DNA of 64,000 bases from an uncultured Gammaproteobacteria bacterium (GTDB lineage: Bacteria > Patescibacteriota > Patescibacteriia > UBA9570 > JBBTWU01): the NCBI GenBank assembly GCA_964364425.1, contig CAYIMB010000001.1:6941-70940 (forward strand), written 5' to 3'. Under the pieces are notes generated by a model. That model was not told the origin of the DNA. It searched no databases and saw only the letters and a program-made list of their open reading frames with translations. Every line of letters starts with the position of its first letter. The stretch's first letter is position 1. The translations under genes and the position numbers were made by a program. Below, piece by piece: positions 6,887 to 59,256 of the stretch.

Positions 6887-6902
6887 AACAGGACGACAGT
6901 CC

Positions 6903-9210: not shown

Positions 9211-9262
9211 GGGAACAGTCTAGACAGATGCGTAAAGATACGCAACTTGGTATACTGTCCCC

Positions 9263-9679
9263 ATGTTTGGATTGACTGGACAAGTGATAGGATTTATTGC
9301 CAAAGATATTGTTTGGAATACGGTGTATTTTCCCATTTGGTGGTACACCCGTGGGATTTTGCGTATCTTGGTGTTAATGAAGCACCAAGTGTCCAGCCTG
9401 GCCCGCACATTGCATTTACCCACGTTGTTCAAATATTTGTTGAAACCAATGTACGGCTACACAGACATCATTAGTCGGATCATCAGTTTTTACGTACGCA
9501 TAGTTCAGTTTATTGTTCTCTTGCTGATCACGTTGGTTGTGGTTGTAGGCCTGGTAGTCCTCTTAGCGGTGTGGATTACCGCGCCGGTCTTGGTTCTGTA
9601 TGGAGTTGCCTTCCACTTGGGTTGGATTGAGTTTAATCTTTATGCCTTGATTGCATGGAACGTTGGACTCCCAGTGTAG
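9263..9679 (+). CDS. Hypothetical integral membrane protein (138 aa)
   Basis: Several hydrophobic helices; lies directly upstream of the Clp-like gene. Confidence 0.5.
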   Translation: MFGLTGQVIGFIAKDIVWNTVYFPIWWYTRGILRILVLMKHQVSSLARTLHLPTLFKYLLKPMYGYTDIISRIISFYVRIVQFIVLLLITLVVVVGLVVLLAVWITAPVLVLYGVAFHLGWIEFNLYALIAWNVGLPV

Positions 9680-9684
9680 TTGGT

Positions 9685-24732: not shown

Positions 24733-24736
24733 AGAG

Positions 24737-26242: not shown

Positions 26243-26243
26243 A

Positions 26244-26894
26244 TTAGTCTTCCTTCAACTCACTTAATTTTTCTGTATCTGTGGAGTGCATGAGTGTATT
26301 CATCCGGGCGGTCAACAGAGAGAGAATGGTAATGCCTAAGACCACATCTACCAATAGGCCTAGTTCCACCACCGCCGGTAAGCCTAACGTTGTGGCTATG
26401 GCTAACAAGAATACACCGTTTTCCAAAACTAGAAAGCCAACCATCTGACTCAAAGCTGCGCGTTGTGAAATGACCATCAGGAAGCCCAAGAAGATCAAAG
26501 ACATGGCCACCACCAACTGCCACTCACCATGGGGTGAAATAACTGAAGCAACGGGCTGGACAATAAAGTAGGAGAACACAATCAGTAAGCCGCCAATTAA
26601 GGCGATTGGCGCCGGGTTAATGACCGTTGGGGCTTTCAGGGCCGGTTTCAGACGCTTCAACAACAGGAGCAATCCACAGGGGATAGCCACAGCCTTTACT
26701 CCAATGGTGAGTAAAGCGGTCAGCCACAGGTGTTGTTGTCCTAAGTTCACCGCCACAAGGATGGTAATGATGCCAACTAGCGCGGCCTGTCCAATATATA
26801 AGTAGACTTGTGATCTAAAGATTGGCCTGACCAGCATGATCAAGGTAATAAACAGAACTAAACCGGTAAACCATTGAATAAAGTCAGTTATCAT
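26244..26894 (-). CDS. HyfE-like small membrane subunit
   Basis: 216 aa, polytopic, in the position of hyfE between the HyfC-like and HyfF-like genes. Confidence 0.6.
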   Translation of the reverse strand: MITDFIQWFTGLVLFITLIMLVRPIFRSQVYLYIGQAALVGIITILVAVNLGQQHLWLTALLTIGVKAVAIPCGLLLLLKRLKPALKAPTVINPAPIALIGGLLIVFSYFIVQPVASVISPHGEWQLVVAMSLIFLGFLMVISQRAALSQMVGFLVLENGVFLLAIATTLGLPAVVELGLLVDVVLGITILSLLTARMNTLMHSTDTEKLSELKED

Positions 26895-27838
26895 AAGCTT
26901 GCAAAGAGTTGAGTTACTAGGGCAATCATGGCCACCACCCAGCCCATACCCAGGAGTGCCGGTACTCTGAGCAAGCGCATTTTAGCCATAGAAGACTCCA
27001 CCAAGGCAATGAGGATAGCTAAGATGAACACTTTTCCTAACCAGAGGACTGTCCCAAGCAACACTGCGCTTAACGTCCACTCCGTAGCCATGCCCCAAGG
27101 CACAACTAAGCTAGCCAAAATGCTCAACATCACCGTGAGTTTAGTCATACTCCCAATCTCCATTAAGGCCAGGTTTTTTCCGGAATTTTCCAAGATCATG
27201 GCTTCATGTACCATGGTGAGCTCTAAGTGTGTGGTTGGGTTATCAAAGGGATAACGGGCATTTTCCGCCAGGGTGATGAGGAAAAAAGACAAGAAGACCA
27301 AAATCAAGGCTGGGTCTAACCAGGCATGTGGGGTGCCTAAGACATGACTGATTATTTCCCCAGGGTAGGTAGATCCTCCGGTCAAGGCTAAAGCAAACAA
27401 GGCAGTAATAAAGACTGGTTCAGCCAAGGCGCTGATCATGGCCTCTCTAGAAGAACCCATGCCTCCAAAGGTCGTCCCTGCGTCCAAGCCGGACAGGACC
27501 AAGAAAGCAGTACCCAGGACCAGAATAAAACCGACAAAAATCATATCAGCCTGAGCGCCAAGGTTGGTGACGTTTGGAAGTAAAAATGCAGCTGTTGCGG
27601 TGGTTCCAAACACCATATATGGGGCGAGTTTAAACACCCAGGAGGTCACATCAGACACCACAGCATCTTTACGGATAAATTTGAGAATATCTCGGTATCC
27701 CTGGAGCAAGGGAGCGCCAACGCGTCCTTGCAGACGAGCTTTGACTTTACGTATAACCCCCGTGACCAGAGGCGCAACGGTCAGCAGCAGCAGACCTTGA
27801 GCGAGAGAAATCAGAATGGCTTGTGTTGTCTGAGTCAT
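26891..27838 (-). CDS. NuoH / HycD / HyfC-like membrane subunit
   Basis: N-terminal GxIRKxKARLQGRxGxPLLQxYRDxLK signature. Confidence 0.85.
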   Translation of the reverse strand: MTQTTQAILISLAQGLLLLTVAPLVTGVIRKVKARLQGRVGAPLLQGYRDILKFIRKDAVVSDVTSWVFKLAPYMVFGTTATAAFLLPNVTNLGAQADMIFVGFILVLGTAFLVLSGLDAGTTFGGMGSSREAMISALAEPVFITALFALALTGGSTYPGEIISHVLGTPHAWLDPALILVFLSFFLITLAENARYPFDNPTTHLELTMVHEAMILENSGKNLALMEIGSMTKLTVMLSILASLVVPWGMATEWTLSAVLLGTVLWLGKVFILAILIALVESSMAKMRLLRVPALLGMGWVVAMIALVTQLFASL

Positions 27839-29925
27839 ATCGTTTTGGCTAACAACAGGAGAGCAATTAACGCCAGCATCATGTAAGTGAGGTAACTATA
27901 GATGTGACCGGATTGTACTTTTTTTACGGAGTTGCCTAAGCGAATGGAAAACCGGGTGATGGGTCTGACCACATAGTCATCAAAGAAGGCCAACGTGTGG
28001 ACTGAATATGAACGGACATGCCAGAAGTAAAAGTTATCCTGCCCTTTGGTCACATGGACTTGTTCTTTAGGACGCAAGAAATAGCGCAAGGCATGCCGCA
28101 CAGGGCTGGTAAACCCAAGGCCTGAATATTGCATGCGTTCATTTAGGGGAGAACCGCAATCCCAAGACGGGCCTTTGACCACTCTGTTTTTCCCTCCCAC
28201 TAATTTCAAGATAATCCAAGCCAGTAGCATCAAGCCAAGCAGAAATACCAGAACCGTCCAAGCGCTGTTTCCAAATGAGACTGTTCCAGTGAGCTGTGCT
28301 TGATAGCTGAGGGTGGTTAGTGGCTCCAGTAGGTCAATAACGTTTGATCCAGCCGCTTGTTTTGTGATCCCCCAAAATTTAGGTAGACGTGCCAGTGTAT
28401 CTAGGACCTCACCCATGCCAAGCGAGATGCCTAAGGCACCTGCCGCCAAGACCAGCATAGAAATACGCATAGACAAAGGAGTTTTAGCCGGTGTAGGAAT
28501 ACCAGCGTCATGGGGTGTCCGGTTCCGGCCTAAGAACACAATTCCAAACATACGGGTGAAGACCACAAAGGCTAAGCCTGCGGCAAAAGCCAGGGCTCCT
28601 AAAATAAGAGGAAAGATAAAGCGCGCTCCCATACTTCCGGTCATAAAACCCTGTAACAACGTTTGTAGCATGAGCCACTCAGAGGCAAATACGCTGAGTG
28701 GAGGAAGGCCCATTAACCCAATTGCACCAACCAAGAAGATCATGGAAGTCAGAGGCAATACTTTGGCCACCCCACCTAGTAAATCCATAGACCTGGTGTG
28801 GAAGGAAAAATACACACTCCCCGCACCCAAGAATAATAACGATTTAAGCACCGCATGATTTACCGTATGCAGCAACGCAGCAATAATTGCTACGTGGGCA
28901 ATGGCCGGTTTCCCAATTGAGGTAAAATACATAGCCGCACCCAAGCCAATAAAAATAATTCCAATATTCTCTATAGAAGAGAAGGCTAAGGCTTTTTTCA
29001 TGTCGCGGCGTTCAATGGCATAAAACACGCCCACCAAAGCAGAAATTCCACCTAAGGCCATGACCAACAGCCCCCACCAGGGAGACATGACTTCCAACAT
29101 GCTTAAACCAAATACGCGGAAGAAGCCATACACCGCTACTTTTAACATCACTCCGGACATCAAGGCGGAAATATGCGACGGGGCTTGTGGGTGTGCTTCC
29201 GGCAACCACATATGCATGGGGACTAAGCCGGCTTTTGTTCCGAAGCCTAAAACTAAGAGGATAAAAGCAAAGGTGGCCATGCCCGGGGTCAGAAATCCGC
29301 CCACGCCCGTCCAATCGTTAAAAAACAGAGATCCGCTGTTATATGAGAAAATAATAAACACGGCCATCAAGAATGCGGTGCCAATCTGCGTCATAATGGC
29401 ATAGATAAATCCGGCTGGTCGGGCTTTGGCGTGGGAGTGTTGGTACACCACCAGCGCAAACGAAGTGAGCGCCATGATTTCCCAGGCAAATAAGAAAGTA
29501 AGAGCATGGGAGGCCACTAAGACCAAGGCCATAGACGCAATAAACCAGTTGGTCATGGCTCCTAGCCAGCCAAGACTATGGTGGCCAATATAGAGCTTGG
29601 CGTACCCAATTCCGTATAAGCTAGTAACAGCGGCTATACCACCCAGAAGTAGCAAAAATAGGCCAGAAAAGGCATCTATATGGATAGATCCTTGGCCAAA
29701 AATGAGGAAATAGGGAAGAGAAAAGGCTTTGTCTTGAGCGGCTTGATGTAAGGCTGTATATCCAACCAGAGCTAAGACCACGCCTCCTACCACGCCTCCC
29801 CAACCACTCACCCAGCGGGACAACACTTGGGCACGGCTACATACCAAAGCAAACGCCCCAGACGCCACTAAGATGCCTAGACTGGTGGTAAAAAGTGCCA
29901 GATTTGAGCTCCCAACCTGTATCAT
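27835..29925 (-). CDS. NuoL / HyfB-like antiporter-type membrane subunit
   Basis: 696 aa, about 17 TM helices, antiporter-family core. Confidence 0.8.
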   Translation of the reverse strand: MIQVGSSNLALFTTSLGILVASGAFALVCSRAQVLSRWVSGWGGVVGGVVLALVGYTALHQAAQDKAFSLPYFLIFGQGSIHIDAFSGLFLLLLGGIAAVTSLYGIGYAKLYIGHHSLGWLGAMTNWFIASMALVLVASHALTFLFAWEIMALTSFALVVYQHSHAKARPAGFIYAIMTQIGTAFLMAVFIIFSYNSGSLFFNDWTGVGGFLTPGMATFAFILLVLGFGTKAGLVPMHMWLPEAHPQAPSHISALMSGVMLKVAVYGFFRVFGLSMLEVMSPWWGLLVMALGGISALVGVFYAIERRDMKKALAFSSIENIGIIFIGLGAAMYFTSIGKPAIAHVAIIAALLHTVNHAVLKSLLFLGAGSVYFSFHTRSMDLLGGVAKVLPLTSMIFLVGAIGLMGLPPLSVFASEWLMLQTLLQGFMTGSMGARFIFPLILGALAFAAGLAFVVFTRMFGIVFLGRNRTPHDAGIPTPAKTPLSMRISMLVLAAGALGISLGMGEVLDTLARLPKFWGITKQAAGSNVIDLLEPLTTLSYQAQLTGTVSFGNSAWTVLVFLLGLMLLAWIILKLVGGKNRVVKGPSWDCGSPLNERMQYSGLGFTSPVRHALRYFLRPKEQVHVTKGQDNFYFWHVRSYSVHTLAFFDDYVVRPITRFSIRLGNSVKKVQSGHIYSYLTYMMLALIALLLLAKTI

Positions 29926-38150: not shown

Positions 38151-38159
38151 GTGGGAAGT

Positions 38160-41100
38160 ATGGAAAAAATCTTAGACGGTCTGAATTCAGCTCAAGCCGA
38201 AGCGGTGTGCCACCGGAATGGTCCATTGTTGTTGGTGGCCGGAGCGGGGACGGGAAAAACGACAGTCATTACCAGGCGCTTGGCCAAGCTCATTCAGGAT
38301 GGGGTGGCTACTCCTGATCAGGTATTAGCTCTGACCTTTACTGACAAGGCAGCGGGTGAGATGGAAGAGCGTATAGATACTTTGATGCCCTATGGGTATA
38401 CAGATTTATGGGTATCTACATTTCATTCTTTTGGAGAACGTTTGCTCCATGAGTATGGGCTGGACATAGGCCTGCCGCATCAATTCAAATTGTTGAATCA
38501 AACGGATCAATGGTTACTCTTGCGCGAACATATTGAGGAATTGGGCCTGGAGTACTACCGGCCAAAAGGCAATCCGACCAAATTTGTTGAAGCGTTATCT
38601 CACCATTTTTCTCGTTTGAAAGATGAGATGATTACACCGGAGCAATATGTGGAATATGCAGAAAAGTTGTGTCTAAACTTAGACGCAGAAGTTGCGCGGA
38701 CAAAACAAACCTTAACAGATGAAGAACGGGCAGGTGCAGATGAAGCCATACGTATTCGCGAGTTAGCCCACGCCTACCATGTATATCAACAGTTATTACT
38801 GGCAGAAAACGCTTTAGACTTTGGTGATCTGATTTTCCATACCGTGCAGTTACTAAAAAAACGTCCGGCTATTTTAAAAAAATTGCGTGATCAATTTCGC
38901 TATATTATGGTAGATGAGTTTCAAGATACCAACTTGGCACAATACGAGCTGATCAAGTTAATTGCTTCACCTAAAAATAATTTGGTGGCCGTGGGTGATG
39001 ATGACCAATGCCTCCCGGTAGGAACAAAAGTAACCATCCCCGGCGGAGAAAAAAGTATTGAGAGCATTAAATCTGGCGATGTGGTTTTGACTGCAGTCGG
39101 GAAAGGAAGTTTGAGCACTTCCGTAGTTTTAGCCTGTTCAAAAAAGAAAAAGACTTCAAGATTTCTTACATTTCAACTAGAAGATGGTCATTCATTAACT
39201 GCTACAGATAATCACAAGCTTTTTTGTTACGTCCCAAGAATTGATCAAGGGGGTAGAACCTATGTTTATGTGATGCATAGTTCATTGTTTGGGTGGAGGA
39301 TTGGAATAACAAATGATTTGGCCACCAGGTTATCTTTAGAAAGGGGTGCTGATAAAATTATAGCTTTACGCTCATTTTCTGATCCAGATGAAGCGAAGTT
39401 CTATGAAATACTGTGGGTTCTGCGTTATCAAATTCCGCCTGTTTGTTTTAAAGAAAGAGAGGGGGTAGCCATTAAGGGGGAATGGTTGAGTCGTCTATAC
39501 CATGAAATAGACACTGAAAAGAATATACAAAAGTTAGCAAAAGATCTGAGGGTAGATTTGCATAGTCATCATGTTGGTTTAGATAGTGTCAATAGAGGTC
39601 GGGGCAAGCGGCTAAAGATTCATTTTAAACTTTGCTATAGAAGTCATAAAATAAAAGGGAGGAATGATTCGATTCTATCTCAACCCCTTGTTCAACATAT
39701 AGTTGAGTTCCAAACTTCCCAATTAGACATCATCCGGAAATTAAAGTTAGCGGGAATTGAAACTCAGAAAGCTAAAAAAGGAATCAGGATCAGAAAGGCA
39801 GGTGTTGACTTAACTGTATTAGAAAACTTTGCACAAAAGGTTGCAGAGATTACAACAGGCTACATTGAATACTCTTTCGATGTCGGGAGAGTAAATATAC
39901 AATCTAAAAAAGCTTTATGTATGCCAGCAGGGAATGTTGTGATTGGTCATTTTTTGCCCGTACAAGTTAAAAATCATATTGAGTATAAAAAGGTTATTGC
40001 TATTCAAGAAAAAGTTACTACGGAGAATGTATATGATTTGGAGATTGCCAGAAGTCACAACTTTTTGGCTAATGGAGTAGTAGTACATAATTCGATTTTC
40101 AAATGGCGTGGAGCATCCGTGTCTAATATTCTGCACTTCCAAAAAGATTTTCCAAACCTGAAGCAAATCGTGCTCACAGAAAATTACCGGTCAGGGCAAC
40201 CTATTCTGGATTTAGCCTACCAATTCATTCAGCAAAATAATCCGGACCGTTTGGAATCAAAACTAGAGATTCAAAAACGGTTGGTGGCTAAGTCAGGACG
40301 TGAGGGAAAGGTATTTCATTTGCGCAGTATGACCGGAGAAGGTGAGGCGCATACTATTGTGAGAAAGATTGCGGAGTTGAAACAGGAACATCCGGACTGG
40401 ACCTGGAGTGATTTTGCCGTTTTGGTTAGGGCGAATGATCATGCGGAAAGTATTTTACCGTTGTTGGAACGGGCCAACATTCCTTACCAGTATGTAGCTT
40501 CCACGGGATTATTTTTGAAACCGCTTATGTTGGATATTTTGTCGTATTTGCGCGTGGTGGAAAATGTGCATAACAATTTGGCTTTGTACCGCGTGCTGAC
40601 CATGCCCATGTGGAAGCTGGCGGCAGAAGATGTGATGGCAGTGTTGAATTACACTGCCCGCAAACCGGTGGGGATGTTGGACACGCTGAAGAACTGTCGA
40701 GCCATTGGGGGCCTGAGCGTTCCAGCGTGTGTGACCATAGAACGCATGCTTTCACTCATGGCCCAGCACTCCCAATTGGTGCGTGAAAAACATGCGGGAG
40801 AGGCGGTCTTGAAGATTGTTCAAGACGTTGGATTGATGAAATGGATGACGGATCAAGAGGAACAGAAGGCGGCACAACATTTGGTCTTACTCAACCAATT
40901 ATTCCAACTGATCGCCTCGTTTGAACAAAGTGCTGAGGATAAGCGGGTTAAATACTTTCTACACAACGTAGATTTAATGCTTGAGGCTGGGGATGCTGGT
41001 GCACTGAAAGTAGATATTGATGAAGGGCCGGAATCAGTTAAAGTCATGACGGTACACGCTTCCAAGGGTCTGGAGTTTCAAGCCGTATTTGTCACCAATC

Positions 41101-42182
41101 TAGTGGATAAACGATTTCCTTCAGTTGGTCGGAACGAACCTATTTCTGTTCCGGATGATTTGCTCCAAGAAATTTTACCCACCGGGGATGCGCATCTTCA
41201 AGAGGAACGTCGTTTATTTTATGTTGCCTGTACCCGGGCTAAACAATACTTATTCCTTACCAGTGCGGAAGATTACGGTGGTATGCGGAAGAAAAAACCC
41301 AGCCGGTTTTTAGTTGAATGTGGATTGGCTGAAGTCAAAGCTGAACCAACCGGCGTGGTGGCCTTTGCAGCGCAAGATCAGGCCATTCCTGCGGAACGCG
41401 CTGTGGTGTTGTCGCATGCCCCTGAGACGTTTAGCTTCTCCCAATTTGAGGCCTATGAACGCTGTCCCTGGCAATACCGGTACCGGTTTGTCCTCAAAGT
41501 ACCGGCCCCCGGAAACTACTCAGCTTCCTTTGGTCGTAGCGTGCATGACACCTTGTTGGAGTTTTTTAAACGTGTGCGGTCTAACACAGAAGCCTCACAG
41601 GGCACGTTGTTTGGTCCGGCGGAAAAACTTACGCTTCCCACAGACAAAGACCTCCTCCAAATTTTTGAAGACAAATGGCAGTCTGATTGGTATGCTACAC
41701 CCAAAGCTGAACAAGAATATAAAGAAGCCGGTCGTAACGCCTTAAAAGAGTTTTACAACATCCATCATCAGGCCTGGCCCAAGGTGAAGTATTTGGAAAA
41801 AGGATTTTCTTTGCGTCTAAAAGACGTCACGGTGAAAGGTAAAATTGACCGGGTAGATGGAGTGGGAGATTCAAAGGTTCAGGTCAATGTGGTGGATTAT
41901 AAAACTGGGCGGTTCAAAGAAAAGAAAGACTTCAACCAGTTGTTTATTTACGCCATGGCCATTCAGGACGTGTTTAAAGAAGAACCGCAACAGGTTGGAT
42001 ATTATTTTATTGAAGAAAATAAACCTTTGGATAAACCGGTGACTCAGCAGGCCTTAGACAAAACGCGTGATTGGGTGCTGAACCTAGCTGAGCAAATTCT
42101 GTCCGGCGACTTTACGCCCTCCCCAGGCCAGCAATGCCAATTTTGTGATTACCGCTCCATTTGTGAATTTAGAGCGGTTTAA
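38160..42182 (+). CDS. UvrD/PcrA-family helicase fused to a C-terminal Cas4/AddB-like PD-(D/E)xK nuclease with a Cys cluster; interrupted by an intein
   Basis: Walker A motif GAGTGKT, motif II DEFQD, motif III VGDDDQ/SIFKWRGA split by the intein, C-terminal VVDYKTG nuclease motif and C...CxxCx5C cysteines. The ATG at 38160 is preferred over the GTG at 38151. Confidence 0.85.
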   Translation: MEKILDGLNSAQAEAVCHRNGPLLLVAGAGTGKTTVITRRLAKLIQDGVATPDQVLALTFTDKAAGEMEERIDTLMPYGYTDLWVSTFHSFGERLLHEYGLDIGLPHQFKLLNQTDQWLLLREHIEELGLEYYRPKGNPTKFVEALSHHFSRLKDEMITPEQYVEYAEKLCLNLDAEVARTKQTLTDEERAGADEAIRIRELAHAYHVYQQLLLAENALDFGDLIFHTVQLLKKRPAILKKLRDQFRYIMVDEFQDTNLAQYELIKLIASPKNNLVAVGDDDQCLPVGTKVTIPGGEKSIESIKSGDVVLTAVGKGSLSTSVVLACSKKKKTSRFLTFQLEDGHSLTATDNHKLFCYVPRIDQGGRTYVYVMHSSLFGWRIGITNDLATRLSLERGADKIIALRSFSDPDEAKFYEILWVLRYQIPPVCFKEREGVAIKGEWLSRLYHEIDTEKNIQKLAKDLRVDLHSHHVGLDSVNRGRGKRLKIHFKLCYRSHKIKGRNDSILSQPLVQHIVEFQTSQLDIIRKLKLAGIETQKAKKGIRIRKAGVDLTVLENFAQKVAEITTGYIEYSFDVGRVNIQSKKALCMPAGNVVIGHFLPVQVKNHIEYKKVIAIQEKVTTENVYDLEIARSHNFLANGVVVHNSIFKWRGASVSNILHFQKDFPNLKQIVLTENYRSGQPILDLAYQFIQQNNPDRLESKLEIQKRLVAKSGREGKVFHLRSMTGEGEAHTIVRKIAELKQEHPDWTWSDFAVLVRANDHAESILPLLERANIPYQYVASTGLFLKPLMLDILSYLRVVENVHNNLALYRVLTMPMWKLAAEDVMAVLNYTARKPVGMLDTLKNCRAIGGLSVPACVTIERMLSLMAQHSQLVREKHAGEAVLKIVQDVGLMKWMTDQEEQKAAQHLVLLNQLFQLIASFEQSAEDKRVKYFLHNVDLMLEAGDAGALKVDIDEGPESVKVMTVHASKGLEFQAVFVTNLVDKRFPSVGRNEPISVPDDLLQEILPTGDAHLQEERRLFYVACTRAKQYLFLTSAEDYGGMRKKKPSRFLVECGLAEVKAEPTGVVAFAAQDQAIPAERAVVLSHAPETFSFSQFEAYERCPWQYRYRFVLKVPAPGNYSASFGRSVHDTLLEFFKRVRSNTEASQGTLFGPAEKLTLPTDKDLLQIFEDKWQSDWYATPKAEQEYKEAGRNALKEFYNIHHQAWPKVKYLEKGFSLRLKDVTVKGKIDRVDGVGDSKVQVNVVDYKTGRFKEKKDFNQLFIYAMAIQDVFKEEPQQVGYYFIEENKPLDKPVTQQALDKTRDWVLNLAEQILSGDFTPSPGQQCQFCDYRSICEFRAV
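39009..40091 (+). mobile_element. Intein (361 aa) in helicase motif III
   Basis: Begins with Cys directly after VGDDDQ, has a block-B TxxH (TATDNH), and ends VVVHN followed by Ser. The extein halves rejoin to the canonical GDDDQSIFKWRGA. Confidence 0.8.
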
Positions 42183-42220: not shown

Positions 42221-42814
42221 ATGAAAGAATCAAGACGATTAGCTCGCGTAGGTATGGCAGCCTTGGGTTTAGCAGCCGCCGGTGCGCCCGGTCAGGCAGA
42301 AGCCGGTATCACTCATAAGAAACCCGGAATGGAAACACACCAAATAGCTGATGTGGTTGCTCCGGTTGACCATGAAACCAGAAAGCTCATGGAAAAATGG
42401 GGCATTGATTTTAATGGCAGAGAAATTCGGTTGAAGCTTGATCCTAGAGATGACGGAAGACCCTTGGTCGCCGGAGAACCAAATGCTGTTGTACAAGTTT
42501 CACATGTCGGAAATGACAAAGTTGTATTCCGTTTTGTTGAGCGTGATGGGGGAGTTGGATCAGTCTCTATTGTACGAGGATATGAGGCAGGTTCATTTGA
42601 ATTCGATTTGAATGTCAGTCAAGGCCACCCACGTAGTGGGTCCGTTGAACAAGGGCTTGGTAAGCATACCTATGGAGAGTACGGAAAGGTTCGAGTGTTT
42701 GGGATGCATACGCATAAACCACCGTCTGATCCTGGAATGAAATGGTATTATCATAACCCTAAAGGAGAAGAGAAAGAGGGTTGGTGGTACCAGGCGCGTG
42801 AGGGCTCAAGATAA
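42221..42814 (+). CDS. Hypothetical secreted protein (197 aa) with C-terminal GMHT...PGMKWYY...G..WY motif
   Basis: N-terminal signal-like sequence (SRRLARVGMAALGLAAAGAPGQAEA). Confidence 0.6.
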   Translation: MKESRRLARVGMAALGLAAAGAPGQAEAGITHKKPGMETHQIADVVAPVDHETRKLMEKWGIDFNGREIRLKLDPRDDGRPLVAGEPNAVVQVSHVGNDKVVFRFVERDGGVGSVSIVRGYEAGSFEFDLNVSQGHPRSGSVEQGLGKHTYGEYGKVRVFGMHTHKPPSDPGMKWYYHNPKGEEKEGWWYQAREGSR

Positions 42815-42840
42815 AATCCAAATCAGTCTATAATCAGCAG

Positions 42841-42864
42841 AACGCCCGCTCCTGGGCGTTTTTG
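42841..42864 (+). terminator. Rho-independent terminator
   Basis: Reads AACGCCC-gctcct-GGGCGTT followed by TTTT. Confidence 0.65.
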
Positions 42865-42986
42865 ATGTGACTTATACTGTTTTTTTGGGTATATCAGGCC
42901 TGACCCCTTGATTTTATATCGATTTTCAGCTATTATCTCTGGCCATCATGGAAGGAATTCCGTGCTCTGCAACCCAGGAGACTCCC

Positions 42987-43244
42987 ATGTTGCAACCCCT
43001 CATGTTTCTTGTCCTCGTCATGGGGCTGTTCGCCGCCCCGTCCACCGCCAACGCCCGGCCGCCCAAGCACCACCAGGCGGCGGCGAGTCACCACGTCCGC
43101 GCCTACGGCCACCACCGCCCGCCCCCGACCCGCATCTACGGCATGCACACCCCGCTGCCCATCCCGCCCGCGGGCATGAAGTGGTACTACAAGGACGGGT
43201 CCAAGGGCCACTACTGGTACCTGGCCCCGGCGCCGGCCTACTAG
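42987..43244 (+). CDS. Small secreted protein (85 aa), paralog of the C-terminus of 42221-42814, encoded with near-100 % GC3 codons
   Basis: AGGAG Shine-Dalgarno 6 nt upstream of the ATG. Signal peptide MLQPLMFLVLVMGLFAAPSTANA, His-rich middle, C-terminal GMHTPLPIPPAGMKWYYKDGSKGHYWY. Confidence 0.6.
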   Translation: MLQPLMFLVLVMGLFAAPSTANARPPKHHQAAASHHVRAYGHHRPPPTRIYGMHTPLPIPPAGMKWYYKDGSKGHYWYLAPAPAY

Positions 43245-43375
43245 GGCCAGCCTGTCCAGCCCACATCCCGCTGCACCTTGCCATGTTGCGGGTCGAATGG
43301 AGCTTCTTCGGAAGCACCTTCGGCCCGCACCTCGTCTCTCTTTTCAAATATACAACAAACCTTTATCATGCCTCC

Positions 43376-45577
43376 ATGCAAGACCAAGTCATTCTCAAAT
43401 TACGCTTTCCCTTTGAAGACGCTTTGCGAGACCCAGTTGAACGTGTGGGAAAATTTGAGTCATTTTTTTACAACGTGTTTCATTTGATGCTCAAGCGCGG
43501 TGAAGTCATGTCATTTGAAATTGTGCAGATTAACGGGATCATGGATTTTTATATTGTGGCACCACGTATTTTGGTTCCCGCAGTACAATCTTTTCTGTAC
43601 GGTGTGATGCCAGATGCTTCTATTGATGAAGTGCAAACCTATGAACACCTTGATGCACTTCCATCTCAAGCCGTTGGGTTTCACCCGCGCTTAAAAGGAA
43701 GTGAAGCCTTCAGCTTACGATCATTCCGTTCCTCAGCCGGGGATCCGTTAAACGCATTTTTTAATTTACTGTCGGCTGTCCCTTCAACCGACGCAGTGTT
43801 TTATCAAGTCTTAGTCCGCACCATTGACGAGTCTTTAACTGGAGAAGAGGGGACAAGTGTGTATGGCTTTACAGAAAAACAAGAAACGGAAGAAGCGAAA
43901 CCAAAGTTCAGCACCACGGTGCGTATGTTGTACTTTCCTCAAGACGCTGAAGATATTAAAACGCGTAGCTTGTCATTTGAAAACGTGTTTAGCCCATTCT
44001 CTACAGAACACAATCATATTGAAGTACAAACCGTGGCCAACATTCAACAGTTTGTAGATGAATATTTCCGGCGCACAGAACAGGCGACTGGTGTGTTTAC
44101 CACAGAAGAAATCGCGTCCTTTTTCCACTCACCGGATCCAGCCGCAAAAATCCGTGGTGTGAACTGGTTGTATTCAAGACGAGCTGAACCACCTATGAAT
44201 CTGCCTTCCTTGAAGAACTGTGAGGAAGATGAATTGTCCATGTTTGGTGAAACCAACTTTCGCGGTCAGCAATTAGAATTTGGAGTGAAGCGGGAAGACC
44301 GTAGACGGCATTTGTATATTGTGGGTAAGAGCGGTACGGGTAAATCGAAGTTATTGGAGAAACTGATTAGTGACGATATTAAGGCAGGTAAAGGGGTGTG
44401 CGTCATAGACCCGCACGGTGACTTGATTCAAGCCTTGTTGTATCACATTCCGCAAGAACGCGTAGAGGATTTGGTGTATTTTAATCCTGCGGACTTGGAT
44501 TTTCCCATTGCGTTTAATCCCATTGCCAACGTGACCCGAGAGTTCAAGCAACAGGTGGCGCAAGGCATGATTGAAATTTTCAAGAAATTTTTTGGTGCGG
44601 ACTGGAGTCCCAAGATTGAACACGTGTTCCGCTTTACTGTTTTGGCCTTGTTGGATTATAAGAAAGCCACGTTGATGGGTATGCAGAAAATGTTGACCGA
44701 CCGACCATACCGCCAAAGTGTCATTTCAGAAATTCAAGATCATGTGGTTAAAAAATTCTGGGCCAATGAATTTTCTAGTTGGTCAGAAAAATTTGATAAT
44801 GAAGCTATTGTGCCTTTGGTGAACAAATTAGGACAGTTTTTGGCAAATGAGATGGTGCGCAACATAGTCTCACAAACTCAAAATAAGATTGACTTTGATG
44901 ATATTATGAATAACCAACGGATTCTGTTGGTTGAATTATCTAAAGGAAAATTGGGTGAAGAGAATTCTGCTTTACTTGGTTCTTTGATTATCACCAAGAT
45001 TGAACAAGCTGGTATGGCACGGGCCTTTGTTTCGGCTCAAGAACGTAAGGACTTCTACCTGTATGTAGATGAGTTCCAAAATTTTGCCACCAAAACGTTT
45101 GATAACATTTTGTCTGAGGCCCGTAAGTATAAACTCAACCTCACCATCTCACATCAATACTTAGGACAACTCTTAAGCTCTACCCGTGAGACGGTGTTTG
45201 GAAACGTTGGTTCTATTATTACTTTCCGTTTAGGCGCAGAAGATGCCGGATATATTGCCAATGAGTTTACTCCACGCTTTACGGCCTATGATGTGATGAA
45301 CCTATCTGTACGAGAAATGTACGTCAAAATGTCCATTGCTGGTGTAGTGGCGCCGCCTTTCTCGGCTCGTACCATGAATGTAGAAGACCCAGAATTTAAT
45401 GAGACCATGCACAATCGTCTGATTGAAGCTTCCCGGAATAAGTATGCAACCCCACTGGCTGAGGTGGAAGCTGAGATTGCCGGAATTGATCAGATAGTTG
45501 TCAGTTCTAATGGAACGGGCAAGCTGGCGGCGCAAGCGGAGTCAACAGATACCGTATTTGAGGCACCTCTGGTGTAA
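43376..45577 (+). CDS. VirD4/TraG-like (AAA_10 superfamily) coupling-type ATPase with no N-terminal TM anchor (alternative start at 43283)
   Basis: Walker A motif VGKSGTGKSKL, VIDPHGD, Walker B motif LYVDEFQNF, and the TISHQYLGQL motif (Q-S/H-x-x-QL). No hydrophobic N-terminal helices. Confidence 0.6.
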   Translation: MQDQVILKLRFPFEDALRDPVERVGKFESFFYNVFHLMLKRGEVMSFEIVQINGIMDFYIVAPRILVPAVQSFLYGVMPDASIDEVQTYEHLDALPSQAVGFHPRLKGSEAFSLRSFRSSAGDPLNAFFNLLSAVPSTDAVFYQVLVRTIDESLTGEEGTSVYGFTEKQETEEAKPKFSTTVRMLYFPQDAEDIKTRSLSFENVFSPFSTEHNHIEVQTVANIQQFVDEYFRRTEQATGVFTTEEIASFFHSPDPAAKIRGVNWLYSRRAEPPMNLPSLKNCEEDELSMFGETNFRGQQLEFGVKREDRRRHLYIVGKSGTGKSKLLEKLISDDIKAGKGVCVIDPHGDLIQALLYHIPQERVEDLVYFNPADLDFPIAFNPIANVTREFKQQVAQGMIEIFKKFFGADWSPKIEHVFRFTVLALLDYKKATLMGMQKMLTDRPYRQSVISEIQDHVVKKFWANEFSSWSEKFDNEAIVPLVNKLGQFLANEMVRNIVSQTQNKIDFDDIMNNQRILLVELSKGKLGEENSALLGSLIITKIEQAGMARAFVSAQERKDFYLYVDEFQNFATKTFDNILSEARKYKLNLTISHQYLGQLLSSTRETVFGNVGSIITFRLGAEDAGYIANEFTPRFTAYDVMNLSVREMYVKMSIAGVVAPPFSARTMNVEDPEFNETMHNRLIEASRNKYATPLAEVEAEIAGIDQIVVSSNGTGKLAAQAESTDTVFEAPLV

Positions 45578-51285: not shown

Positions 51286-54011
<2,726 letters not shown>

Positions 54012-57819: not shown

Positions 57820-59256
57820 ATGTCAGATTGGCCAGTCTACTTTAAAGAGAACTTGATTGTTGGAAATCTTGACTCCGGAGTTGGAGTCGCTACGCTTTGG
57901 TCTCCGCGGGAAGCTATTGCCAAGGGTCTAGACCCTAAGACCTATTGCGTGATTGGTCAGTTGTATGCCAATGATGGGATTAATCCCATGATTCGGAATA
58001 TCATGGCCAGGCCGCAAATCAGAACACTGGTGCTATGCGGTCAGGATAAAATTGGTTCAGCCGATTCTTTGGCTCATTTGATTAACAACGGCATAGATGA
58101 AAAAGGGAAGGTGGTAGGCAAGCCGGAGTCAAAAGTGGAAAAAGAAATTCCACGGGAAGCGGTGGAGAAATTCCGGCAGAATGTGAAGCTGGTGGATATG
58201 CGTGGAGTGTTTGATACGGTTAAAATCCAGACCGCCATTAATGAGGTGTCTCAAGACAATACGGCGTTTGCAGAACCACAATTATTCCCGGAGCCGGAGA
58301 TTTCCACTGACCGGTACCCAACAGATGCTTCCACCATCAAAATTCGGGGAAAGTTTGTTGGCGACGTGTGGCTGCGTCTACTCTGGCACATCATGCGGTT
58401 TGGGGCAGAAAAACAGTCACATCACGGGACGAACCAGAAAGAGTTGTGGAATGTAGTCACTGTCATAGAGGAAGAAGATCCGACTCATATCAAATGGTCG
58501 CCGTGGTTTAATTTCACACAGGAACATTTTGAAGGGTATAAGCCGCAAGTGATGACTAAAGAGAAAATTCCTTCGTTGGAATATACCTACGGTCAACGCC
58601 TGAGAGATCATGACGGGATTGACCAGATTGCTTCCATTAAAGAAAAGCTCAAAAAAGAGCCGTTCAGCCGGCGGGCTGTGGGCGTGACTTGGAATGTGCA
58701 GTTGGATGATTCCAGCACCCATCCACCATGTTTAGATATTGTGCAGTGTGTGGTTCAAGATGAACTGTTGTTGATGAATTGTTACTTCCGTTCCAATGAC
58801 ATGTTTAGAGCTTGGCCGGAAAACGCTTTGGCTTTGCGCACCATGCAAAAAGAAATTGCAGACGAACTGGGAATCATGTTGGGTTCTTTGACCATTGTTT
58901 CAGCTTCTGCACATGTGTACGAAGAAAGTTACGCGGCGATCAAGGAGATGTTGAAGGAGTATTATCCTAAGGCCCTTGATTTTTGTGAATTTGATCCACG
59001 AGGTAATTTTGTCATCTCAGTCTCAAACGGAACTATCAACTTGATTCAGATGAATCCCACCGGATCAAAAATTGGAACGTACTCAGGAAAGACTGCCATG
59101 CAAGTCTATCAAAAGCTGGTTGAAGATTATGCGGTATCTATTATTGGACATGCCTTAGATTTAGGCGGAGAGTTACAAAAAGCTGAGATGTGTTTGCGTT
59201 TAGGTATTCAGTATACGCAGGACCGCCCAGTGCCGTTTCAGGATTTGAAAAAGTAG
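57820..59256 (+). CDS. thyA: Thymidylate synthase (ThyA family) with an uncharacterised N-terminal extension of about 175 aa
   Basis: HPPCLD catalytic-Cys motif, YFRSNDMF...WPEN, SAHVYEE, and an upstream GTNQKELWNV region. Confidence 0.7.
   Translation: MSDWPVYFKENLIVGNLDSGVGVATLWSPREAIAKGLDPKTYCVIGQLYANDGINPMIRNIMARPQIRTLVLCGQDKIGSADSLAHLINNGIDEKGKVVGKPESKVEKEIPREAVEKFRQNVKLVDMRGVFDTVKIQTAINEVSQDNTAFAEPQLFPEPEISTDRYPTDASTIKIRGKFVGDVWLRLLWHIMRFGAEKQSHHGTNQKELWNVVTVIEEEDPTHIKWSPWFNFTQEHFEGYKPQVMTKEKIPSLEYTYGQRLRDHDGIDQIASIKEKLKKEPFSRRAVGVTWNVQLDDSSTHPPCLDIVQCVVQDELLLMNCYFRSNDMFRAWPENALALRTMQKEIADELGIMLGSLTIVSASAHVYEESYAAIKEMLKEYYPKALDFCEFDPRGNFVISVSNGTINLIQMNPTGSKIGTYSGKTAMQVYQKLVEDYAVSIIGHALDLGGELQKAEMCLRLGIQYTQDRPVPFQDLKK

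What the first reader, a model, noticed from the sequence alone, without database searches (positions are those of the whole stretch)
42987..43340. ~350-bp island with near-100 % GC3 codon usage that encodes a paralog of the adjacent gene
From about 42990 to 43340 the composition jumps to about 70 % GC, with almost every codon of the 85-aa ORF ending in G or C (ccc ctc ... gcc gcc ccg tcc acc ...). The flanking genes and the ORF's own Shine-Dalgarno and start region have the genome's normal composition. The protein is homologous to the C-terminus of the upstream gene (42221-42814), which uses normal codons. This fits recent horizontal acquisition, or gene conversion, from a high-GC donor. For an episymbiont with an Actinobacteria-like host this would be a host-derived surface factor. 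The alternative is an assembly chimera.
Basis: partly seen in the sequence, partly recalled or inferred. Interest (0 to 1): 0.75.

Follow-up and report, generated by a model that had tools for sequence, protein, structure and literature searches.

The report
GC-rich small secreted-protein gene cassette
A real 366-bp gene cassette for a tiny secreted protein is far richer in G+C than the groundwater Patescibacteria genome around it; related species carry GC-rich genes in the same slot, so it is neither an assembly error nor a one-off recent import, and why it stays GC-rich is unexplained.

Summary
Window 42990-43340 is 71% GC against 46% (z about 6.5), and the 85-codon ORF 42987-43244 has GC3 of 95% against 46% for other genes. 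Its C-terminus is homologous to that of the upstream 197-aa gene.

- It is not a chimera. A second public contig is identical across both junctions, and four other related species (contigs L005, L006/L007, L031, L046) carry homologous GC-rich small genes (GC3 0.85-0.88). All have the same normal-GC promoter, 5' hairpin, ribosome-binding site and GC-rich 3' stem-loop; three sit directly upstream of the same VirD4-like coupling-protein (T4CP) gene.
- The neighbouring slot holds another GC-rich gene (Nudix-like) in eight of the related contigs.
- Core genes of these species are saturated at synonymous sites, so the GC-richness is an old, clade-wide feature of a variable locus.
- No donor was found in any search, Actinobacterial or otherwise.
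- The organism is a Kerfeldbacteria-related groundwater Patescibacterium, not a Saccharibacterium.

Best reading: a lineage-restricted secreted-protein cassette from an unidentified GC-rich gene pool, exchanged within the clade and slowly losing GC. Active maintenance of high GC is a serious rival.

The parts
42221..42814 (+). 197-aa secreted-looking protein gene with normal composition (GC3 0.36). Its C-terminal 60 residues carry the same module as the island ORF.
   Evidence: Public name 'hypothetical protein AAB558_00915, Patescibacteria group bacterium'. No Pfam family.
42842..42863 (+). Hairpin acgccc-gctcct-gggcgt followed by TTTT, the likely terminator of the 197-aa gene. Equivalent GC-clamped hairpins follow the homologous gene in L002, L003 and L004.
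   Evidence: Read directly. It was not called by the consensus scan, so this is an inference.
42908..42936 (+). Sigma-70-like promoter TTGATT-17-TATTAT with normal AT-rich composition. The same site is present in L031, L004, L006 and L005.
   Evidence: 9 of 12 matches. Alignments. Sequences.
42947..42964 (+). Conserved 5'-leader hairpin catggaa-GGAA-ttccgtg. L031 and L004 have cacggaa-ggaa-ttccgtg, L006 has cacggg-aa-ttccgtg and L005 has cacgg-aaaaa-ccgtg.
   Evidence: The fold is not unusually stable on its own (z = 0.13), so its role is inferred from conservation only.
42972..43338 (.). The variable cassette, which equals the GC island. Homology to L031 and L004 in the leader fades after GTGCTCTGCA and resumes at TCTTTTCAAAT. 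L004 has about 17 nt here instead.
   Evidence: Pairwise alignments. GC profile.
42976..42981 (+). Ribosome-binding site AGGAGA, 5 nt before the ATG. It is conserved in L005 and L006; L031 has GGGAG.
42987..43244 (+). 85-codon ORF with GC3 of 0.95. Its parts are a signal peptide, a His/Pro-rich linker and a C-terminal beta module.
   Evidence: Family HMM hits of 44.2 bits (small GC-rich family) and 40.9 bits (197-aa family). dN/dS of 0.30-0.46 among the closer homologues.
42987..43055 (+). Sec-type signal peptide MLQPLMFLVLVMGLFAAPSTANA, with cleavage after ANA. Homologues end in GLA, ALA, ADA or ANA.
   Evidence: Read from the alignments. No signal-peptide predictor was available, so this is an inference.
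43119..43241 (+). C-terminal module PPTRIYGMHTPLPIPPAGMKWYYKDGSKGHYWYLAPAPAY. The model shows a three-stranded beta meander.
   Evidence: AlphaFold2 gives strands 49-51, 64-71 and 74-81, with decile-block mean pLDDT of 72-85 over residues 51-80; the N-terminal half is below 56.
43287..43329 (+). 43-nt GC-rich stem-loop followed by a C/U-rich tail (43330-43346). It is terminator- or attenuator-like and lies between the small gene and T4CP.
   Evidence: -39.6 kcal/mol for the 106-nt 3'UTR, z = -4.0. Equivalent long hairpins fold in L006 and L005 and one is visible in the L031 sequence. The window and L006 3'UTRs are 79% identical over 68 nt. The terminator scan did not call it.
43376..45577 (+). 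733-aa VirD4/TraG/HerA-like coupling ATPase (T4CP) with normal composition. It is 89-98% identical in the related genomes.
   Evidence: Pfam DUF87, TrwB_AAD_bind and TraG-D_C. Identities. Public gene calls wrongly start this gene at 42962, inside the island.

Best explanation
WHAT IT IS (well supported). The island is a complete small gene cassette, made of these parts in order:
- a normal-GC sigma-70-like promoter;
- a conserved leader hairpin;
- an AGGAGA ribosome-binding site;
- an 85-codon ORF;
- a 43-nt GC-rich stem-loop, which ends the unit just upstream of a VirD4-like type-IV coupling-ATPase gene.

The protein has a Sec-type signal peptide, a His/Pro-rich disordered linker and a roughly 40-residue beta module (GMH..PP.GMKWYY..G.YWYL.P).

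It is this genome's member of a lineage-restricted family of small secreted proteins. Every relative that has the gene has it GC-rich (GC3 0.85-0.88, against about 0.44 for neighbouring genes). The gene shares a variable two-gene slot with a second GC-rich gene, usually Nudix-like and on the opposite strand. That slot lies between a 197-aa paralogue or helicase gene and T4CP. The window copy is a shortened form that has lost the Cys-containing central domain (PGDY[IL]CTT..VPLDTKV). Its C-terminal module resembles the 197-aa family at least as closely as it resembles its own family.

WHY IT IS GC-RICH (inferred). GC is raised at all three codon positions and in the 3'UTR, which is the signature of DNA long exposed to strong GC pressure. 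I think the most likely history is this:
- The module entered the ancestor of this clade from an unsampled GC-rich gene pool, or is periodically re-supplied from one.
- It is exchanged among clade members by recombination in the highly conserved flanks.
- It drifts towards the genome's composition more slowly than expected.
- The window allele was replaced or remodelled after the split from its nearest relative.

FUNCTION (inferred from context only). A secreted or surface accessory factor, expressed from the promoter that otherwise drives T4CP, with the stem-loop limiting read-through into T4CP.
For: Real gene, not an artefact.
- An independent contig is identical across both junctions.
- Homologues lie in L006/L007, L005, L031 and L046, with the same promoter, hairpin, ribosome-binding site and 3' stem-loop.
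- There is strong codon periodicity.
- dN/dS is 0.30-0.46 for the closer pairs.
- HMM scores are 44 and 41 bits.

Cassette and variable slot.
- The homology breakpoints at 42972 and 43338 coincide with the GC boundaries.
- The small gene is absent from L004 and L045. The Nudix-like gene is absent from the window. L046 carries a different GC-rich 256-aa gene in that place.
- Across 132 kb from 8 contigs of the clade, windows of 60% GC or more occur almost only at this locus.

Foreign-type composition that is decaying.
- GC1/2/3 is 0.65/0.51/0.95 and the UTR is also GC-rich.
- The unrelated GC-rich genes cluster together while the interspersed native genes are unaffected: the 197-aa family has GC3 of 0.30-0.36 and T4CP 0.38-0.44.
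- The L006 Nudix-like gene shows 28 GC-to-AT against 2 AT-to-GC third-position changes, beyond what parsimony bias gives in simulation (P < 0.0005). L005 shows 13 against 1 (P about 0.03).

Exchange within the clade.
- Nudix-like dS between L031 and L004 is 0.38, against 1.32 for T4CP and 1.57 for the helicase C-terminus.
- The window and L031 have 97-98% identical T4CP proteins, but their small proteins are only 29-38% identical, depending on the alignment.
Against: - No donor exists in any collection searched. All known homologues of both GC-rich families sit in low- or mid-GC Patescibacteria-like contexts.
- The flanking genes are synonymous-saturated (pS 0.51-0.75). On my rough two-state estimate, a module inherited from the common ancestor should have lost most of its excess GC3. 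It still has 0.70-0.95.
- L031 and L004 show no net GC loss.
- The Nudix-like family is GC3-richer than its neighbours in 14 of 16 loci, including very distant lineages. That looks like a property of the gene rather than a history of transfer.
- No mobility gene, tRNA or target-site duplication was seen at the borders.
- Expression and secretion are untested.
Confidence: 0.45

Rival explanations
1. The family is endogenous and its high GC is actively maintained. Both the small secreted-protein gene and the Nudix-like gene are old residents of this lineage. A gene-specific force holds them GC-rich against the genome's mutational drift. That force could be selection on GC-rich mRNA or DNA, such as stability, expression level or nuclease avoidance. 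It could also be GC-biased repair in a recombination hot spot.
For: - Position, orientation and regulatory signals are conserved across species whose core genes are synonymous-saturated.
- GC3 is 0.70-0.95 in every copy.
- Synonymous divergence in the island genes is lower than in the flanks (Nudix-like L031-L004 dS 0.38 against 1.32; small gene L006-L046 dS 0.81 against T4CP 1.49).
- L031 and L004 are compositionally stationary.
- The Nudix-like family exceeds its neighbours' GC3 in 14 of 16 loci across distant lineages.
- No donor is known.
- The GC boundaries coincide with the mRNA unit, that is, CDS plus stem-loop.
Against: - Several unrelated GC-rich genes cluster in one variable locus, while the native genes interleaved with them show no elevation at all. 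That is hard to reconcile with regional biased conversion, and it is an odd coincidence for gene-specific selection.
- L006, and marginally L005, are clearly losing GC.
- Presumably highly expressed genes in the window, such as ATP synthase, reach a GC3 of only about 0.5, so ordinary translational selection cannot give 0.95.
- GC1 and GC2 are raised too.
Confidence: 0.3
2. One reading: a single recent transfer, or gene conversion, into this genome from a high-GC host such as an Actinobacterium, yielding a host-derived surface factor.
For: - The window copy has the highest GC3 of all (0.95, and 76 of 77 codons after codon 8).
- It is very unlike the copy in the nearest relative L031 (29-38% identity against 97-98% for T4CP). 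This is compatible with a late replacement of this particular allele.
Against: - The gene belongs to a family already present and GC-rich in four other species of the clade, with the same leader and a 3'UTR 79% identical to that of L006.
- There is no Actinobacterial or other outside homologue.
- The genome is Kerfeldbacteria-like, from groundwater, with an unknown host.
- The junctions fall inside a native transcription unit.
Confidence: 0.1
3. Assembly chimera: a fragment of a GC-rich organism was mis-joined into a Patescibacteria contig.
For: Abrupt composition change, a low-coverage metagenome (coverage 4 in the ENA contig name), and gene callers that mis-handle the region.
Against: - A second contig has identical junctions.
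- The ORF starts at a native ribosome-binding site and ATG.
- Homologous GC-rich genes lie in the same place in at least six other assemblies from four other species.
- The 3'UTR is conserved with L006.
Confidence: 0.01
4. The island is not protein-coding. It is a GC-rich structured RNA or regulatory leader of the T4CP gene, and the ORF is incidental.
For: - GC-rich intergenic islands in AT-richer genomes are often structured RNAs (general knowledge).
- The 3' part folds strongly.
- The 3' part is better conserved than the ORF between the window and L006.
Against: - Extreme three-base periodicity, 0.65/0.51/0.95.
- The signal peptide and C-terminal motif are conserved at the protein level while the DNA has diverged beyond blastn detection.
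- dN/dS is below 0.5.
- There is no Rfam match at E <= 1.
Confidence: 0.03
5. T-DNA-like reading. The GC-rich genes are written in the codon dialect of a GC-rich host because they are delivered to that host through the adjacent type-IV machinery and expressed there.
For: Only circumstantial. All the GC-rich genes flank a VirD4-like coupling-protein gene. Nudix hydrolases are known effector types in other pathogens (general knowledge).
Against: - The small gene has a native promoter and ribosome-binding site, plus a Sec signal peptide suited to expression in the symbiont.
- No transfer origin, relaxase or border repeats were seen.
- In L005 the small gene is not next to a T4CP gene.
- The host is unknown.
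Confidence: 0.02

Closest known systems
Horizontally acquired genomic islets or ORFans of atypical base composition, with amelioration (Lawrence and Ochman framework; cited from general knowledge)
   Same: Sharp compositional discontinuity at all codon positions, an orphan gene, patchy gene content in a variable locus flanked by conserved core genes, and measurable GC loss in at least one lineage.
   Different: - No donor is known, and there are no mobility genes, tRNA or direct repeats.
- The gene sits precisely inside a native transcription unit.
- The anomaly persists across species whose synonymous sites are saturated, which simple amelioration does not predict.
Arrays of small Sec-signal proteins next to type-IV secretion genes in Saccharibacteria and other CPR (McLean et al. 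2020, PMC7427843, legend of the figure on the T4SS region)
   Same: Small hypothetical proteins with N-terminal signal peptides encoded beside type-IV secretion components in reduced CPR genomes. Here the 197-aa and 85-aa genes lie in tandem, upstream of a VirD4-like gene.
   Different: - Sequence relatedness to those proteins was not tested.
- The partner gene here is a coupling ATPase. VirB4, VirB6 or VirB2 homologues were not looked for.
- That paper's passages retrieved here do not mention a compositional anomaly.
Integron gene cassettes
   Same: A promoterless ORF with its own ribosome-binding site and a structured 3' element, in a fixed site downstream of a resident promoter. Slot content differs between relatives and cassette composition differs from the host.
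   Different: - No integron integrase is among the called genes of any locus.
- No RYYYAAC or GTTRRRY core sites are visible in the 3' element (read).
- The neighbouring GC-rich gene is on the opposite strand.
- This is a resemblance of layout only.
The adjacent 197-aa protein family (P0001-P0004, P0015, P0016)
   Same: Signal peptide and C-terminal module (Y/F)GMH..P..G(M/K)KWYY..G(W/Y)WY; 40.9 bits against the family HMM.
   Different: - It lacks that family's roughly 100-residue central domain.
- GC3 is 0.95 against 0.30-0.36.
- It occupies the slot, leader and 3' stem-loop of the small GC-rich family.

Membership tests
Small GC-rich secreted-protein family of this clade (L005, L006/L007, L031, L046) | Normal-GC promoter, leader hairpin and ribosome-binding site, followed by a GC-rich CDS | tested here: met
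   Alignments. Sequences. GC3 of 0.85-0.95.
Small GC-rich secreted-protein family of this clade (L005, L006/L007, L031, L046) | Signal peptide plus C-terminal G(M/L)H..P.G(Y/M)KW.Y..G..W.L.P module | tested here: met
   Family HMM gives 44.2 bits in two segments. Alignments.
Small GC-rich secreted-protein family of this clade (L005, L006/L007, L031, L046) | Central domain PYPLTEPKPGDY[IL]CTT..VPLDTKV with two cysteines | tested here: not met
   Absent from the 85-aa protein (alignments). The window copy is a short variant.
Small GC-rich secreted-protein family of this clade (L005, L006/L007, L031, L046) | Long GC-rich 3' stem-loop with a C/U-rich tail | tested here: met
   (window, L006, L005). 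(L031, by reading). 79% identity to L006. Covariation support is weak with only 4 sequences.
197-aa paralogue family | C-terminal module | tested here: met
   BLASTP E = 1e-7. HMM 40.9 bits.
197-aa paralogue family | Central domain of about 100 residues (profile positions 39-121) | tested here: not met
   Gap in alignment A1.
Horizontally acquired islet | Atypical composition and codon usage relative to the genome | tested here: met
Horizontally acquired islet | A closer homologue in a distant, compositionally matching donor lineage | tested here: not met
   No outside homologue.
Horizontally acquired islet | Mobility signatures at the borders (integrase, transposase, tRNA, direct repeats) | tested here: not met
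   None among the called genes of the loci. No repeats of the island in the window. No target duplication is evident.
Horizontally acquired islet | Ongoing drift towards the recipient's composition | tested here: inconclusive
   Shown for the Nudix-like gene in L006 and marginally in L005, but not in L031 or L004. Not testable for the 85-aa gene itself.
Assembly chimera | Junctions that are unique to one assembly | tested here: not met
Assembly chimera | Break in read support or coverage at the junctions | not testable with these tools
   No read data were available.
Integron cassette | IntI integrase and attC core sites | tested here: not met
   No recombinase in the neighbouring gene calls. 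No RYYYAAC or GTTRRRY in 43245-43340 (read). The whole genome was not searched.
Diversity-generating retroelement target | A template repeat matching the variable 3' end of the gene | tested here: not met
   blastn with word size 9 against the 64-kb window finds only 11-nt chance matches. The rest of the genome was not searched.
Known RNA families (Rfam 15) | Covariance-model match | tested here: not met
   No match at E <= 1 in 42700-43500.
CPR arrays of small secreted proteins associated with T4SS (McLean 2020) | Sec signal peptide and adjacency to type-IV secretion genes | tested here: inconclusive
   Adjacency to a VirD4-like gene is shown. The signal peptide is judged by eye only. Sequence relatedness to the published proteins was not tested.

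The most novel reading that the evidence does not exclude
A few specific genes beside the T4CP gene are actively held at very high GC inside a 45% GC Patescibacteria genome, over evolutionary times long enough to saturate synonymous sites elsewhere. These genes are the small secreted protein, the Nudix-like gene and its substitutes. GC3 reaches 0.99 after codon 8 in the window copy. This would mean a gene-specific GC-favouring force in a bacterium. Candidates are selection on GC-rich nucleic acid, strongly localised biased gene conversion, or repeated conversion from a co-diverging GC-rich partner.
Probability: 0.3. Interest if true: 0.7.

Novelty: new variant of a known kind. Interest (0 to 1): 0.5.

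Why it matters
- Annotation. Public gene calls are wrong at every one of these islands. The 85-aa gene is swallowed by an N-terminally extended T4CP call, and relatives have opposite-strand phantom ORFs. This secreted-protein family is therefore invisible in protein databases. A secreted factor expressed from the promoter of a type-IV coupling-protein gene is a reasonable candidate for the symbiont-host interface in an uncultured lineage.
- Evolution. Compositional outliers are routinely read as recent transfers. Here the outlier state is shared by species that have diverged beyond synonymous saturation, with a measurable decay in only some lineages. This is a compact natural test of how fast amelioration really runs. 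It also asks whether GC content can be held up gene by gene, a long-standing question about what sets bacterial GC content.

Tried and rejected
- Protein word search with the 85-aa ORF. Only 4 candidates shared words with the query and none scored.
- Exact look-up of the 98-aa alternative ORF: not on record.
- Exhaustive profile search. It found only the 197-aa family and weak, probably spurious, hits to repeat proteins through the central domain.
- Pattern scans of JGI metagenomes and IMG/VR with the small-family alignment: nothing.
- blastn against plasmids and phages: nothing.
- Pfam on all island proteins. There was only a sub-threshold NUDIX hit for the 238-aa gene (16.5 bits against a 21.1 cutoff) and nothing for the small family.
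- Rfam: nothing.
- The GTDB scan with T4CP gave Kerfeldbacteria, Uhrbacteria and Magasanikbacteria loci. Their mild GC bumps upstream of T4CP are the Pro/Gln-rich tails of a second T4CP paralogue, not homologues of the island.
- Consensus folding of the four 3'UTRs gave only 7 pairs and no useful covariation.
- The integron and DGR readings were considered and dropped. There is no integrase, no core sites and no template repeat.
- Translational selection was dropped as the cause of the GC3, because other genes, including ATP synthase, stay at or below about 0.55.
- Regional biased gene conversion is considered unlikely, because the interleaved native genes have unchanged or lower GC3.
- A fold search of the 85-aa model was not run. 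Only about 35 residues are modelled with confidence.
- My first helicase comparison used wrong window coordinates and is void (rows involving 'window'). It was redone on the C-terminus.
Full report
**1. The observation**

- The 300-bp window with the highest GC in the whole 64 kb is 43031-43330, at 71.3%. The mean is 46.0% with sd 3.9%. The runner-up region reaches 59%.
- At 30-bp resolution the rise begins near 42980-43010 and ends sharply at 43340.
- ORF 42987-43244 (85 aa) has GC1/GC2/GC3 of 0.65/0.51/0.95, with 81 of 85 codons ending in G or C. Three of the four exceptions fall in the first eight codons.
- The 41 long ORFs of the window average GC3 of 0.46 +/- 0.05, and the highest is 0.55.
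- The chance of 81 of 85 is 5e-9 even if a uniform 70% GC is assumed.
- The upstream gene 42221-42814 has GC3 of 0.36.
- Its C-terminus aligns with the ORF at 35% identity over 65 residues, E = 1e-7. The shared pattern is (Y/F)GMH..P..GMKWYY..G.(W/Y)WY.

**2. Source and artefact check**

The 197-aa protein is on record as a hypothetical protein of a 'Patescibacteria group bacterium' MAG (locus tag AAB558_00915). It also occurs on a separately deposited 13-kb ENA contig, whose name (Hain_H32_02um) suggests a 0.2-um groundwater fraction. That contig matches the window at 8116 of 8117 bases, and the single difference is at its very end. Both junctions are therefore reproduced.

With the downstream protein as query, the nearest species representatives are Kerfeldbacteria (66-71% identity), followed by Uhrbacteria and Magasanikbacteria MAGs from groundwater. 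From general knowledge these belong to class ABY1, not to Saccharibacteria.

Public gene calling starts the downstream gene at 42962, inside the island. This explains why the 85-aa protein is absent from protein collections.

**3. Anatomy**

Upstream of the ORF lie three normal-GC elements:
- a sigma-70-like site TTGATT-17-TATTAT at 42908-42936;
- an 18-nt hairpin at 42947-42964;
- AGGAGA, 5 nt before the ATG.

The protein starts with a typical signal peptide (MLQPLMFLVLVMGLFAAPSTANA), judged by eye. A His/Pro-rich stretch follows and is modelled as disordered. The last 40 residues or so are modelled as a three-stranded beta meander, with decile-block mean pLDDT of 72-85 over residues 51-80.

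The 3' 95 nt contain a 43-nt stem-loop at 43287-43329, followed by a C/U-rich tail. The 106-nt UTR folds at -39.6 kcal/mol, with z = -4.0 against shuffles. The next gene, 43376-45577, is a DUF87/TrwB/TraG-type coupling ATPase (T4CP). There is no Rfam match and no second copy of the island in the window.

**4. Relatives change the picture**

Homologues of the 197-aa gene (69-77% identity) led to contigs L002-L004 from other assemblies. L003 and L004 also have a GC island directly after that gene. However, it encodes a 238-aa Nudix-like protein on the opposite strand. Its Pfam NUDIX score is 16.5 bits, below the cutoff.

Following that protein and further 197-family members produced L005-L008, L031, L045 and L046.

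tblastn and ORF inspection then revealed true homologues of the 85-aa gene:

| Contig | Coordinates (strand) | Length | GC3 |
|---|---|---|---|
| L006 (also L007) | 8297-8710 (-) | 137 aa | 0.85 |
| L005 | 6877-7290 (-) | 137 aa | 0.88 |
| L031 | 2284-2808 (-) | 174 aa | 0.86 |
| L046 | 2251-2706 (+) | 151 aa | 0.88 |

Each has the same promoter, leader hairpin and ribosome-binding site in normal-GC sequence, followed by a GC-rich CDS and a long GC-rich 3' stem-loop. In L006, L031 and L046 the gene sits directly upstream of T4CP, as in the window. In L004 and L045 it is absent, and in L004 the same promoter and hairpin lead straight into T4CP.

Gene callers placed phantom ORFs on the wrong strand or frame in L005, L006 and L045.

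The ancestral layout appears to be: helicase, 197-aa gene, Nudix-like gene (minus strand), AT-rich promoter gap, small gene (plus strand), T4CP. Individual genomes show different losses:
- The window lacks the Nudix-like gene.
- L031 and L005 lack the 197-aa gene.
- L046 has a different GC-rich 256-aa gene in the Nudix position, with GC3 of 0.89 and a weak Hexose_dehydrat hit.

Across 132 kb from eight contigs of the clade, 200-bp windows of 60% GC or more are confined to this neighbourhood. The exceptions are a mild bump inside a ClpB-like gene in the window and a 152-aa gene beside the helicase in L005.

**5. Cassette boundaries**

Against L031 the leader is nearly identical up to about 42971. 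Homology resumes at 43339 (TCTTTTCAAAT). L004 has about 17 nt in between. The GC island is therefore exactly the replaceable segment.

**6. What the 85-aa protein is related to**

It scores 44.2 bits against an HMM of the small GC-rich family, through the signal-peptide region and the C-terminal module. It scores 40.9 bits against an HMM of the 197-aa family, through a single 59-residue match. It lacks both the Cys-containing central domain of the former and the central domain of the latter.

'Paralogue of the adjacent gene' is thus true for the C-terminal module. By position, leader, signal peptide and 3' stem-loop, however, the gene belongs to the small GC-rich family. The 3' stem-loop is 79% identical to that of L006 over 68 nt, although the proteins are only about 40% identical.

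**7. Age**

Nei-Gojobori estimates between these genomes give pS of 0.51-0.74 for T4CP, 0.72-0.75 for PheS, 0.47-0.79 for the helicase C-terminus and 0.64-0.80 for the 197-aa family. All are near or at saturation. The island genes nevertheless keep GC3 of 0.70-0.95 in every genome.

On a simple two-state model (my estimate, not a fitted one), a neutral sequence inherited from the common ancestor should have lost most of its excess GC3 by now.

Two further observations bear on this.
- Synonymous divergence inside the islands is lower than in the flanks. For the Nudix-like gene, L031-L004 dS is 0.38, against 1.32 for T4CP. For the small gene, L006-L046 dS is 0.81, against 1.49. This fits either constraint on synonymous sites or later exchange of the cassettes within the clade.
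- Polarised third-position changes in the Nudix-like gene were calibrated against a stationary F81 simulation that reproduces the parsimony bias. L006 shows real GC loss (28 against 2, P < 0.0005) and L005 marginal loss (13 against 1, P about 0.03). L031 and L004 show none.

The small-gene tree agrees with T4CP for L006 and L046 (69% against 98%) but not for the window and L031 (29-38%, depending on the alignment, against 97-98%). The window allele was therefore replaced or heavily remodelled in its own lineage. dN/dS of 0.30-0.46 for the closer pairs supports translation in the stated frame.

**8. Search for a source**

Nothing outside this clade carries the module:
- the word-indexed search of 5.8 billion proteins;
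- an exhaustive HMMER profile search of 1.84 billion representatives, which returned only three full-length 197-family members;
- degenerate-pattern scans of JGI metagenome contigs and IMG/VR;
- blastn against plasmids and phages.

One caveat applies. A donor copy only about 40% identical over 40 residues would fall below significance in the billion-sequence searches.

The Nudix-like family does have distant relatives (39-53% identity). They lie in other Patescibacteria-like contigs, including a Spechtbacterales MAG. In 14 of 16 such loci its GC3 exceeds that of neighbouring genes, by 0.07-0.38.

**9. Interpretation**

Firmly supported:
- it is a real gene cassette for a small secreted protein;
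- it belongs to a lineage-restricted family;
- it lies in a variable slot upstream of T4CP;
- it is not a chimera;
- it is not a one-off recent event.

The cause of the composition is unresolved.

For import from a GC-rich pool:
- GC pressure is visible at all codon positions and in the UTR.
- Unrelated GC-rich genes cluster in one variable locus.
- The boundaries are sharp and the interleaved native genes are untouched.
- GC loss is demonstrable in L006.

Against import, and for active maintenance:
- There is no donor anywhere.
- The anomaly persists beyond synonymous saturation.
- L031 and L004 are compositionally stationary.
- Synonymous rates in the island genes are low.
- The GC excess of the Nudix-like gene is family-wide.

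I put import with slow decay at about 0.45 and active maintenance at about 0.3.

**10. Comparison with what is known**

The layout recalls three things:
- compositional islets from horizontal transfer;
- the small Sec-signal proteins beside type-IV secretion genes reported for Saccharibacteria and other CPR (PMC7427843);
- integron cassettes, superficially.

Integron and DGR membership fail on defining features: no integrase or core sites, and no template repeat. A general survey of transfer in groundwater Patescibacteria exists (PMC12455944). The passages retrieved do not describe single-gene GC islands like this one.

**11. Verdict**

The gene family is new and misannotated. The persistent GC-richness at one locus is an unusual variant of a familiar phenomenon. 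Interest is moderate.

Noticed in passing
window 42962-45577; L005 6849-7289(+); L006 8204-8791(+); L045 8734-9387(+): Public gene calls are wrong at every GC island. The T4CP call is extended upstream through the island, and phantom ORFs are called on the wrong strand or frame. As a result the small secreted proteins are missing from protein databases.
   Followed up: yes
L004 2896-3612(-), L005 10001-10720, L006 8900-9613, L031 2982-3698, L045 ~8767-9470(-), L009, L032, L033-L044: A Nudix-like protein family without a Pfam assignment (P0005-P0014) is richer in GC3 than its neighbours in 14 of 16 loci. These include distant Patescibacteria-like lineages with only 39-53% identity. In L045 the gene may be frameshifted, because tblastn returns two segments.
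   Followed up: partly
L046 1147-1917(-): In one relative the Nudix slot holds a different GC-rich 256-aa gene (GC3 0.89). It has only a weak precomputed hit to Hexose_dehydrat.
   Followed up: partly
L005 13861-14319(+): There is a third GC-rich gene (152 aa, GC3 0.67, no Pfam) between the helicase and a 115-aa gene in L005. The window has no counterpart there.
   Followed up: partly
window 38151-42182 and 51315-54011: Both the UvrD/PD-(D/E)XK helicase-nuclease (1343 aa) and GyrB (898 aa) carry inteins (Intein_splicing and Hint hits). The orthologues in L003, L005 and L045 (967-981 aa), and GyrB in L005 (676 aa), show no intein hits and are shorter by about the size of an intein.
   Followed up: partly
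window 42947-42964; L004 3757-3774; L031 ~2843-2860(-): An 18-nt leader hairpin (cayggaa-GGAA-ttccgtg) is conserved right after the promoter, whether the first gene is the small secreted protein or T4CP. A C/U difference in the stem keeps pairing as G-U. Its function is unknown.
   Followed up: partly
window 23143-29925 (- strand): A cluster encodes a fused Complex1_30kDa/49kDa protein and two Proton_antipo_M (NuoL/Mrp-like) membrane proteins. A Na/H exchanger-TrkA_N gene lies next to it at 21484-23160, and an F-type ATP synthase operon lies further downstream at about 30.9-37.2 kb (identified only by ORF-size and synteny match to the Pfam-annotated L005 and L045 operons). This is respiratory-complex-like or hydrogenase-like equipment that is not typical of reduced Patescibacteria genomes.
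   Followed up: no
window 10568-10878: This is the only other stretch of 60% GC or more in the window. It is a mild bump (GC3 0.63 against 0.50 in the rest of the gene) inside a ClpB-like AAA+ gene (9655-12432).
   Followed up: yes
window 57820-59256: A 478-aa protein combines MtrA-like, thymidylate-synthase-like and PterinBD-DUF4346 domains, which is an unusual fusion.
   Followed up: no
L012 3818-5998; L019 4010-6001: In Kerfeldbacteria and Magasanikbacteria relatives, the gene directly upstream of the T4CP orthologue is a second T4CP-like paralogue with a long Pro/Gln-rich tail. This tail accounts for the mild GC rise there.
   Followed up: partly
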